Of a DNA stretch of 41,323 nucleotides, positions 38,075-38,242 are shown piece after piece. Source of the DNA: Escherichia coli (lineage in GTDB: Bacteria; Pseudomonadota; Gammaproteobacteria; Enterobacterales; Enterobacteriaceae). Numbering within the stretch: position 1 is the stretch's first letter; each line of letters starts with the position of its first letter. Made by a program: the position numbers and the translations under genes. Where the stretch lies: NCBI RefSeq assembly GCF_003334405.1, contig NZ_QOWM01000024.1; one strand, given 5' to 3'. The notes under the pieces are model-generated. The model was not told the origin of the DNA, searched no databases, and worked only from the letters and a program-made list of their open reading frames with translations.

Positions 38075-38179
38075 AGAGACTCCCGTATACTTTCTTCAAA
38101 AATAAATGAAAATAGTTCTTATTTCAATTACGGAAAGACTCTTTTTTAAGCAAAGAATAGAAATATGAATAAAAATAAT

Positions 38180-38235
38180 GGGCTACCAAAAGTAGCCCAT
38201 TGACAAAAAATGCGGCGATACTGGAAGGTATCGCC
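38180..38235 (-). terminator. chiA tandem terminator hairpins
   Basis: GGCGATAC-tggaag-GTATCGCC (38214-38235) followed on the minus strand by U6, then GGGCTAC-caaaa-GTAGCCC (38180-38198) followed by a U-rich stretch; starts 8 bp after the chiA stop. Confidence 0.6.
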
Positions 38236-38242
38236 AACACAT

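What the first reader, a model, noticed from the sequence alone, without database searches (positions are those of the whole stretch)
38075..38242. bfd upstream region: Fur-box-like AT-rich hexamer run plus two hairpins shared with the chiA 3' end
The 168-bp bfd-chiA intergenic region holds the tandem chiA terminator hairpins. Between them and the bfd start is an AT-rich segment (about 38101-38130, AATAAATGAAAATAGTTCTTATTTCAATTA) with partial similarity to the Fur box consensus GATAATGATAATCATTATC. Iron-dependent repression of bfd is expected from the literature, but the match is weak and needs testing.
Basis: partly seen in the sequence, partly recalled or inferred. Interest (0 to 1): 0.25.

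Follow-up and report, generated by a model that had tools for sequence, protein, structure and literature searches.

The report
Known Fur operator at bfd promoter
The AT-rich stretch upstream of the E. coli K-12 bfd gene is a strong, conserved binding site for the iron-sensing repressor Fur, sitting inside the bfd promoter just downstream of two chiA terminators, and this control is already documented, so the finding is correct but ordinary.

Summary
The window is E. coli K-12, 100% identical to W3110 over the 901 bases compared. The 168-bp chiA-bfd spacer (38075-38242, genes on the minus strand) is as described.

- **Terminators.** Two stable hairpins (38236-38213 and 38201-38177), each followed by a U tract on the chiA strand only, are tandem intrinsic terminators.
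- **Promoter.** Downstream lies a sigma-70 promoter, TTGAAA-17-TATTTT (38127-38099).
- **Strength.** It matches the classical consensus string at only 11 of 19 positions. A weight matrix I built from 21 canonical, ChIP-exo-supported Fur sites (bfd excluded) scores it 20.3 bits. That is the best hit in the 41-kb window (next 12.8), above the median of canonical sites, and reached by 6 of 20,000 shuffles.
- **Conservation.** All 80 bfd loci from Gammaproteobacteria have an equivalent site.
- **Prior work.** Published work already predicted this site (20.2 bits at -40). It also showed iron-dependent Fur ChIP-exo/ChIP-seq binding here, Fur repression of a bfd-lacZ fusion, and strong derepression in fur mutants.

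Verdict: real, mechanistically clear, already known.

The parts
38243..38245 (-). chiA stop codon (TAA)
   Evidence: ORF list and W3110 annotation.
38213..38236 (-). chiA terminator hairpin 1 (GGCGATAC-cttcca-GTATCGCC core). The U tract follows at 38205-38210.
   Evidence: Terminator scan. Fold of -14.9 kcal/mol, z -5.6. CFT073 differs only in the loop.
38177..38201 (-). chiA terminator hairpin 2 (AATGGGCTAC-ttttg-GTAGCCCATT). The U-rich tail follows at 38167-38176.
   Evidence: Terminator scan. Fold of -16.2 kcal/mol, z -4.9. A hairpin of different sequence sits at the same place in UBA5654.
38127..38139 (.). Published Fur ChIP-exo peak of strain W3110 (4173360-4173372), mapped onto the window. 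It was called under iron-replete conditions only.
   Evidence: Dataset 2 of PMC10164565. Coordinate mapping.
38122..38127 (-). bfd promoter -35 hexamer, TTGAAA
   Evidence: Promoter scan. Shimada 2014 assigns the same TTGAAA-17-TATTTT to bfd-bfr from RpoD holoenzyme genomic SELEX (PMC3946193). It is conserved as TTGTAA or TTGAAA in other enterobacteria.
38105..38123 (.). Main Fur operator, a 19-bp 9-1-9 site. It reads AATAAGAACTATTTTCATT in the bfd sense, with its centre at 38114, which is -40 from the bfd ATG. The 7-1-7 core is 38107-38121.
   Evidence: Own PWM score of 20.27 bits, shuffle control, leave-one-out comparison. Chen 2007 reports 20.2 bits at -40. Orthologous sites occur in 80 of 80 loci.
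38111..38129 (.). Weak overlapping second Fur site, offset by 6 bp (3.2 bits). It fits the usual arrangement of two overlapping dimers.
   Evidence: Chen 2007 reports a cluster of 3 sites over 31 bp. The equivalent site in the O55:H7 allele scores 8.4 bits.
38099..38104 (-). bfd promoter -10 hexamer, TATTTT
   Evidence: The position is conserved as TACACT in the tufA-linked alleles.
38080..38084 (-). bfd Shine-Dalgarno sequence, GGGAG
   Evidence: Sequence. ACGGGAG is strongly conserved upstream of bfd in Enterobacterales.
38072..38074 (-). bfd start codon (ATG)

Best explanation
The spacer holds two independent, ordinary elements read on the minus strand. (1) Two tandem Rho-independent terminators end chiA transcription and insulate bfd from it. 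(2) Further downstream is the sigma-70 promoter of bfd(-bfr), TTGAAA-17-TATTTT. Its 17-bp spacer, plus the last two bases of the -35 hexamer, is a 19-bp Fur operator at 38105-38123. A weak second site overlaps it with a 6-bp offset. When iron is sufficient, Fe2+-Fur dimers occupy this operator and block RNA polymerase from the -35/-10 region, so bfd is repressed. When iron is scarce, Fur leaves and bfd is transcribed. Its ferredoxin product then helps release iron from bacterioferritin. Shown here or in the literature: the sequence elements, the strength and conservation of the site, Fur occupancy in vivo and Fur-dependent expression. Inferred: the exact transcription start, steric occlusion as the mode of repression, and in vivo efficiency of the terminators.
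For: The PWM built from 21 canonical ChIP-exo-supported Fur sites, with bfd excluded, has 20.1 bits of information. It scores 38105-38123 at 20.27 bits. This is the top hit among about 41,000 window positions, and the next best is 12.77. In 120,654 background positions only four training sites score as high. Shuffle controls give 6 of 20,000 and 2 of 20,000. The site scores above 13 of 21 canonical sites in leave-one-out scoring. The operator lies exactly between the predicted -35 and -10 hexamers, and the same promoter is named from RpoD genomic SELEX (PMC3946193). All 80 bfd loci, from Enterobacterales to Pseudomonas, Marinomonas and Alcanivorax, have a hit of at least 12.5 bits within 150 bp upstream. 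Chance expectation is 0.005 per locus, and 54 of the 80 loci score at least 19 bits. Conservation among 31 enterobacterial loci begins sharply at about -62 and covers the -35 hexamer, the Fur box, the -10 hexamer and the SD sequence. Two E. coli alleles of the region that are only 79% identical both keep a box of 20.3 to 20.6 bits in the same promoter position. Published support: Chen 2007 found a Fur cluster at bfd of 20.2 bits, 3 sites over 31 bp, at -40. Gao 2023 found an iron-replete-only ChIP-exo peak that maps to 38127-38139, and bfd rose by log2 2.3 to 7.3 in fur knockouts of eight strains. Beauchene 2015 reported Fur ChIP-seq binding and Fur repression of a bfd promoter-lacZ fusion. 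Terminators.
Against: The match to the classical 19-bp consensus string is only 11 of 19, which is no better than 231 other window positions. The left half-site is degenerate (TAAGAAC against TGATAAT). The ChIP-exo peak centre lies 13 to 25 bp upstream of the PWM centre rather than on it, although this is within the paper's own +/-10 bp extension plus peak-calling scatter. I found no mapped transcription start site and no footprint for this promoter, so the -35/-10 assignment rests on prediction, genomic SELEX and conservation. My PWM search was seeded with the published consensus, so it is not a fully naive motif discovery.
Confidence: 0.93

Rival explanations
1. The AT-rich run is only promoter or UP-element DNA, and its resemblance to a Fur box is a by-product of AT richness. 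Fur would then regulate bfd indirectly or from elsewhere.
For: The spacer core has 21% G+C. Consensus-string matching does not distinguish it from background.
Against: Dinucleotide-preserving shuffles of the AT-rich core reach the PWM score in 2 of 20,000 cases. The site is the only strong hit in the spacer. Equivalent sites occur in 80 of 80 orthologous loci. A published iron-dependent ChIP-exo peak lies next to it.
Confidence: 0.02
2. The AT-rich spacer is mainly a target of H-NS or another nucleoid protein that silences the horizontally acquired gsp-chiA region, and Fur plays a minor role.
For: The region is AT-rich and borders chiA/gsp. From my own knowledge, not tested here, these genes are reported to be H-NS-silenced in K-12. 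The bfr-bfd-chiA-gsp block behaves as an exchangeable haplotype.
Against: In Shimada's promoter table, some rows carry an H-NS flag but the bfd row carries none. bfd is derepressed by log2 2.3 to 7.3 by fur deletion alone. The Fur box is equally strong in alleles without chiA/gsp. The two mechanisms are not exclusive.
Confidence: 0.05
3. The palindromic Fur box also, or mainly, controls a divergent plus-strand transcript, like the Salmonella sRNA STnc4000 that is transcribed away from bfd with a Fur box over its -10.
For: PMC5001712 describes STnc4000 as divergent from bfd and Fur-controlled. In the tufA-linked E. coli allele, the reverse strand of the -35 region reads TACAAT, a good -10 hexamer (sequence).
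Against: In the K-12-type allele the same position reads TTCAAT, with no acceptable -35, and the scan finds no plus-strand promoter. On the plus strand neither hairpin is followed by a T run. No Rfam family matches the region.
Confidence: 0.08
4. The two hairpins are not chiA terminators but REP-like repeats, an sRNA, or a leader or attenuator of bfd.
For: They are stable and lie in the bfd upstream region.
Against: They lie upstream of the bfd -35 hexamer, so they are not part of the bfd transcript from this promoter. U tracts follow them only in the chiA sense. Hairpin 1 starts 7 nt after the chiA stop codon. Nothing in Rfam matches. No other copies were found in the local repeat search. E. 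coli genomes that lack chiA lack these hairpins and instead have the single tufA terminator.
Confidence: 0.03

Closest known systems
Canonical E. coli Fur-repressed promoters (fhuA, cirA, exbB, sufA, entC, ryhB and others)
   Same: A 19-bp 9-1-9 / 7-1-7 operator of about 20 bits overlaps the -35/-10 region, with an overlapping second site 6 bp away. Fur occupancy is iron-dependent and the gene is derepressed in fur mutants.
   Different: Nothing essential differs. The left half-site is more degenerate than in most canonical sites, so the classical consensus string matches poorly at 11 of 19.
The bfd Fur site already listed by Chen et al. 2007 (PMC2189734) and bound in the ChIP-exo and ChIP-seq studies (PMC10164565, PMC4676285)
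   Same: It is the same site. Chen gives 20.2 bits at -40 from the bfd start. My independent matrix gives 20.27 bits centred at -40.
   Different: Chen counts three sites above 0 bits over 31 bp, whereas my matrix gives two (20.3 and 3.2 bits). According to Chen's Table 4, the site had not been footprinted or gel-shifted.
bfd promoters of other Gammaproteobacteria (enterobacterial tufA-bfd spacer; Pseudomonas, Marinomonas and Alcanivorax bfd)
   Same: A Fur box of at least 12.5 bits, scoring mostly 17 to 24 bits, lies -40 to -61 from the bfd start. In Enterobacterales it sits in the spacer of a TTGTAA-17-TACACT promoter.
   Different: The K-12-type allele has AATAAGAACTATTTTCATT and a TATTTT -10 in place of AATCATAACTATTCTCATT and TACACT. 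It is preceded by chiA terminators rather than the tufA terminator.
Tandem Rho-independent terminators
   Same: Two G+C-containing stem-loops, each followed by a U tract, lie directly after a stop codon.
   Different: Nothing unusual. Termination efficiency was not measured.

Membership tests
Fur operator (Fur box) of a Fur-repressed promoter | The sequence matches a Fur binding model at the level of proven sites. | tested here: met
   It scores 20.27 bits with a PWM trained on 21 canonical sites without bfd. It is the top hit of the window and scores above 13 of 21 leave-one-out scores. Shuffle p is about 3e-4.
Fur operator (Fur box) of a Fur-repressed promoter | The operator overlaps the core promoter, so that bound Fur excludes RNA polymerase. 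| tested here: met
   The site at 38105-38123 fills the 17-bp spacer of TTGAAA-17-TATTTT. The same promoter is named from RpoD genomic SELEX. The promoter is predicted, and I found no mapped transcription start.
Fur operator (Fur box) of a Fur-repressed promoter | Fur occupies the site in vivo in an iron-dependent way. | not testable with these tools
   Literature only. The W3110 ChIP-exo peak, called under iron-replete conditions only, maps to 38127-38139. A Fur ChIP-seq site is reported upstream of bfd.
Fur operator (Fur box) of a Fur-repressed promoter | The downstream gene is derepressed without Fur or under iron limitation. | not testable with these tools
   Literature only. bfd rises by log2 2.3 to 7.3 in fur knockouts of eight strains. 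A bfd-lacZ fusion is repressed by Fur.
Fur operator (Fur box) of a Fur-repressed promoter | The site is conserved at orthologous promoters. | tested here: met
   80 of 80 loci have a hit of at least 12.5 bits within 150 bp upstream of bfd, against 0.005 expected per locus. Both E. coli alleles keep it.
Fur operator (Fur box) of a Fur-repressed promoter | Purified Fur binds directly (footprint or gel shift). | not testable with these tools
   Chen 2007 Table 4 lists no footprint or gel shift for bfd. I found none in the papers searched.
Rho-independent (intrinsic) terminator | A stable G+C-containing stem-loop is followed directly by a U tract on the transcribed strand. | tested here: met
   Two sites with 9 and 11 pairs and T-rich tails. 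Folds of -14.9 and -16.2 kcal/mol, with no shuffle as stable. There is no U tract on the plus strand.
Rho-independent (intrinsic) terminator | It lies just downstream of the stop codon of a gene on the same strand. | tested here: met
   Hairpin 1 begins 7 nt after the chiA TAA.
Rho-independent (intrinsic) terminator | The structure is kept in relatives despite sequence change. | tested here: inconclusive
   The one diverged relative with chiA next to bfd (UBA5654) has two hairpins of different sequence at the same places. CFT073 changes only a loop base. One comparator is too few.
Rho-independent (intrinsic) terminator | Transcripts end there in vivo. | not testable with these tools
   No 3'-end data were examined.

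The most novel reading that the evidence does not exclude
The K-12 bfd control region is one of two deeply diverged haplotypes (79% identity) that segregate within E. coli and are exchanged together with the gsp-chiA block. The tufA-linked haplotype keeps a good divergent -10 (TACAAT) under the same Fur box, like the promoter of Salmonella STnc4000. The K-12 haplotype has lost it (TTCAAT) and has chiA terminators there instead. One Fur operator would then control two transcripts in about 41% of E. coli strains and one transcript in the rest, possibly with different iron thresholds for bfd.
Probability: 0.25. Interest if true: 0.3.

Novelty: already known. Interest (0 to 1): 0.08.

Why it matters
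Bfd mobilises iron from bacterioferritin. Repression by Fur ties that release to iron need, which is a textbook part of iron homeostasis. Confirming the operator adds nothing new for E. coli K-12. It does show that comparison with a consensus string underrates real Fur sites, and that a PWM in the 9-1-9 register recovers them cleanly. The only modestly new material is incidental. Two very different bfr-bfd haplotypes coexist in E. coli, and both preserve a Fur box of equal strength. This is a natural demonstration that the operator is under selection.

Tried and rejected
- **Classical consensus.** With up to 3 mismatches it gave no hit in the window. Its best match is 11 of 19, and 231 window positions do as well, so it was rejected as a test.
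- **7-1-7 pattern.** TGANAATNATTNTCA with up to 2 mismatches gave 6 hits against 1.9 expected, so it was not decisive.
- **Rfam.** A scan of 37300-38700 at E-value up to 1 gave only a chance hit inside chiA, so no known RNA family lies in the spacer.
- **Repeat search.** A search of 38040-38280 found only the two hairpins and short chance matches. It gave no sign of REP-type repeats.
- **Plus-strand promoter.** I looked for a divergent promoter that would make an STnc4000-like sRNA. The scan found none at its threshold in K-12 or in the O55:H7 allele.
- **Unavailable sources.** The supplement of PMC4676285 holding ChIP-seq coordinates is not held. Seo 2014, requested as PMC4167408 (an identifier recalled from memory and not verified), is not held under that id.
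- **Other PWM hits.** The hits at 7597-7615 (12.8 bits, at the start of trkA) and 26760-26778 (10.9 bits, inside gspC) lie well below canonical sites and were not pursued.

Full report
**Identity and layout.** The window is E. coli K-12. Bases 37300-38700 match thousands of E. coli chromosomes at 100%. The 901 bases around the finding are identical to W3110 NC_007779.1 4172900-4173800. The whole window is the reverse complement of W3110 4170176-4211498. On the minus strand the gene order is tufA, chiA (38243-40936), bfd (37880-38074), bfr (37332-37808).

**Hairpins.** The consensus scan finds two terminator-like sites on the minus strand. One is at 38236-38213 (9 pairs, tail CATTTTTTGT). The other is at 38201-38177 (11 pairs, tail ATTTTTATTC).
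- As RNA they fold at -14.9 and -16.2 kcal/mol, with z-scores of -5.6 and -4.9, and no shuffle folds as well. Together they give -35.9 kcal/mol.
- The plus-strand versions fold equally well but are preceded, not followed, by the homopolymer runs. They therefore act in the chiA direction only.
- Hairpin 1 starts 7 nt after the chiA stop codon.
- CFT073 differs only by one loop base. The diverged chiA-bfd spacer of Enterobacteriaceae bacterium UBA5654 has two hairpins of different sequence at the same positions.
- No Rfam family matches.
- They are ordinary tandem intrinsic terminators of chiA, and they lie upstream of the bfd promoter.

**Promoter.** The same scan finds TTGAAA (38127-38122), a 17-nt spacer and TATTTT (38104-38099) on the minus strand. 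Shimada et al. 2014 assigned exactly TTGAAA-17-TATTTT to bfd-bfr. They did so from genomic SELEX with RpoD holoenzyme in the chiA-bfd spacer (PMC3946193). I found no mapped start site. A start near 38092 and a short leader carrying the GGGAG Shine-Dalgarno sequence (38084-38080) are inferred.

**Fur site, own test.** Comparison with consensus strings is uninformative.
- The classical 19-mer has no hit with 3 or fewer mismatches. Its best match in the spacer is 11 of 19, and 231 window positions do as well or better.
- The 7-1-7 pattern with 2 or fewer mismatches gives 6 hits against 1.9 expected.

I therefore built a weight matrix. I took W3110 ChIP-exo peak coordinates for classical Fur targets from Dataset 2 of Gao et al. 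2023 (PMC10164565). The targets were fepA-fes, fepD-entS, fepB, entC, sufA, ydiE, ryhB, feoA, exbB, fiu, fhuE, tonB, cirA, yncE, gpmA, mntH, yqjH, sodA, efeU and yddA. I added fhuA from Chen's coordinate. I fetched the DNA and ran a palindromic one-site-per-sequence EM on 73-bp windows, with bfd excluded. The resulting 19-bp model has the consensus AATGATAATCATTATCATT and 20.1 bits of information.

- It scores 38105-38123 (AATAAGAACTATTTTCATT in the bfd sense) at 20.27 bits.
- This is the best hit in the window, and the next best is 12.77. Among 120,654 positions in the window plus 79 kb of W3110, only four training sites score as high.
- Dinucleotide-preserving shuffles of the spacer reach the score in 6 of 20,000 cases. 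Shuffles of its 21%-G+C core reach it in 2 of 20,000.
- In leave-one-out scoring the canonical sites average 19.5 bits (median 20.1), and 13 of 21 fall below the bfd site.
- A second site offset by 6 bp (38111-38129) scores 3.2 bits.
- The operator covers the last two bases of the -35 hexamer and the whole spacer, and it abuts the -10 hexamer. This is the classic geometry for occlusion.

**Conservation.** A scan of one genome per species for Bfd relatives returned 80 loci.
- Every one has a PWM hit of at least 12.5 bits within 150 bp upstream of bfd. Chance expectation, from 196,798 control positions in the same loci, is 0.005 per locus. 54 of the 80 score at least 19 bits.
- In Enterobacterales the site sits at -40 to -49, inside a TTGTAA-17-TACACT promoter. 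In Pseudomonas, Alcanivorax and their relatives it sits at about -48 to -61, and in several Marinomonas at -11.
- Among 31 enterobacterial loci with the site at -43, conservation is absent upstream of about -62. It is then high across the -35 hexamer, the Fur box, the -10 hexamer and the SD sequence.

**Literature.** This site is already known.
- Chen et al. 2007 list bfd among the strong predicted Fur clusters: 20.2 bits, 3 sites, 31 bp, strongest site at -40. They cite earlier expression studies (PMC2189734). Position -40 is window position 38114, the centre of my site.
- Gao et al. 2023 report a Fur ChIP-exo peak for bfd in W3110 at 4173360-4173372, called under iron-replete conditions only. 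It maps to 38127-38139. bfd rose by log2 2.3 to 7.3 in fur knockouts of eight strains.
- Beauchene et al. 2015 report Fur ChIP-seq binding and Fur repression of a bfd promoter-lacZ fusion, stronger under anaerobiosis (PMC4676285).
- Huja et al. 2014 also detected a Fur box at bfd with a PRODORIC matrix (PMC4145685).

**Mechanism.** Fe2+-Fur binds the operator between the -35 and -10 hexamers and excludes RNA polymerase. Iron limitation releases it, and bfd is then made to mobilise iron from bacterioferritin. Fur binding in vivo and Fur-dependent expression have been shown by others. The strength, placement and conservation of the site are shown here. Occlusion itself, the transcription start and terminator efficiency are inferred.

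**Rivals.** I considered four alternatives, and all are unlikely as replacements for the main model: chance AT-richness, H-NS as the main regulator, a divergent Fur-controlled sRNA as in Salmonella (STnc4000, PMC5001712), and a non-terminator role for the hairpins. The K-12 allele shows no usable plus-strand promoter.

**Side observation.** E. coli is dimorphic here.
- 3161 of 5426 complete genomes carry the K-12-type junction with chiA upstream of bfd.
- 2233 genomes have a bfr-bfd that is only 79% identical in DNA (56 of 64 Bfd and 139 of 158 Bfr residues identical). In those genomes tufA lies directly upstream, and chiA and the gsp operon are absent.
- Their Fur box is the common enterobacterial AATCATAACTATTCTCATT, scoring 20.6 bits at -43.
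- chiA-linked versions also occur in Enterobacter sichuanensis, Trabulsiella, Kosakonia oryziphila and UBA5654.

**Verdict.** The site is strong rather than weak, and it is already established. Interest is low.

Noticed in passing
window 37332-38242, compared with L098 (E. coli O55:H7 TB182A) 2982-3907: E. coli carries two very different haplotypes at this locus. 3161 of 5426 complete genomes have the K-12 type, with chiA upstream of bfd. 2233 genomes have a bfr-bfd only 79% identical in DNA, with tufA directly upstream, a shorter prepilin peptidase gene (468 bp against 678-bp gspO) beside bfr, and no chiA or gsp operon. Both keep a Fur box of about 20 bits in the same promoter position.
   Followed up: partly
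L007, L012, L023, L028, L031, L047 (upstream of bfd at 1501): A chiA-like gene upstream of bfd, with diverged bfd promoters and Fur boxes, also occurs in Enterobacter sichuanensis, an Enterobacter MAG, Trabulsiella, Kosakonia oryziphila and UBA5654. Most other Enterobacteriaceae have tufA there. This suggests the block between rpsJ and tufA is exchanged between lineages.
   Followed up: partly
window 37332-38074 (bfr, bfd): A pan-genome association study (PMC11390585) lists bfr and bfd as accessory genes. Their strain frequencies are identical to those of gsp and chiA (0.812 against 0.375). Given the 79%-identity alleles, this is probably allele splitting by the clustering step and linkage to gsp-chiA, not presence or absence of bfr and bfd.
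   Followed up: partly
window 38120-38145, plus strand; L098 about 3770-3790: Salmonella has a Fur-controlled sRNA, STnc4000, transcribed divergently from bfd (PMC5001712). In the tufA-linked E. coli allele, the reverse strand of the bfd -35 region reads TACAAT, a plausible -10. In K-12 it reads TTCAAT and there is no plus-strand promoter hit.
   Followed up: partly
Dataset 2 of PMC10164565, E. coli W peaks 3667719-3667731 and 3667868-3667880: In E. coli W a second Fur ChIP-exo peak, assigned to bfr and labelled intergenic, lies 149 bp from the bfd peak. My PWM finds no strong site in the K-12 bfd-bfr spacer or the nearby sequence. I did not map this second peak.
   Followed up: no
window 7597-7615 and 26760-26778: These are the next-best Fur PWM hits in the window, at 12.8 and 10.9 bits. 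They lie at the 5' end of trkA and inside the 5' part of gspC. They score well below canonical sites and are probably chance.
   Followed up: no
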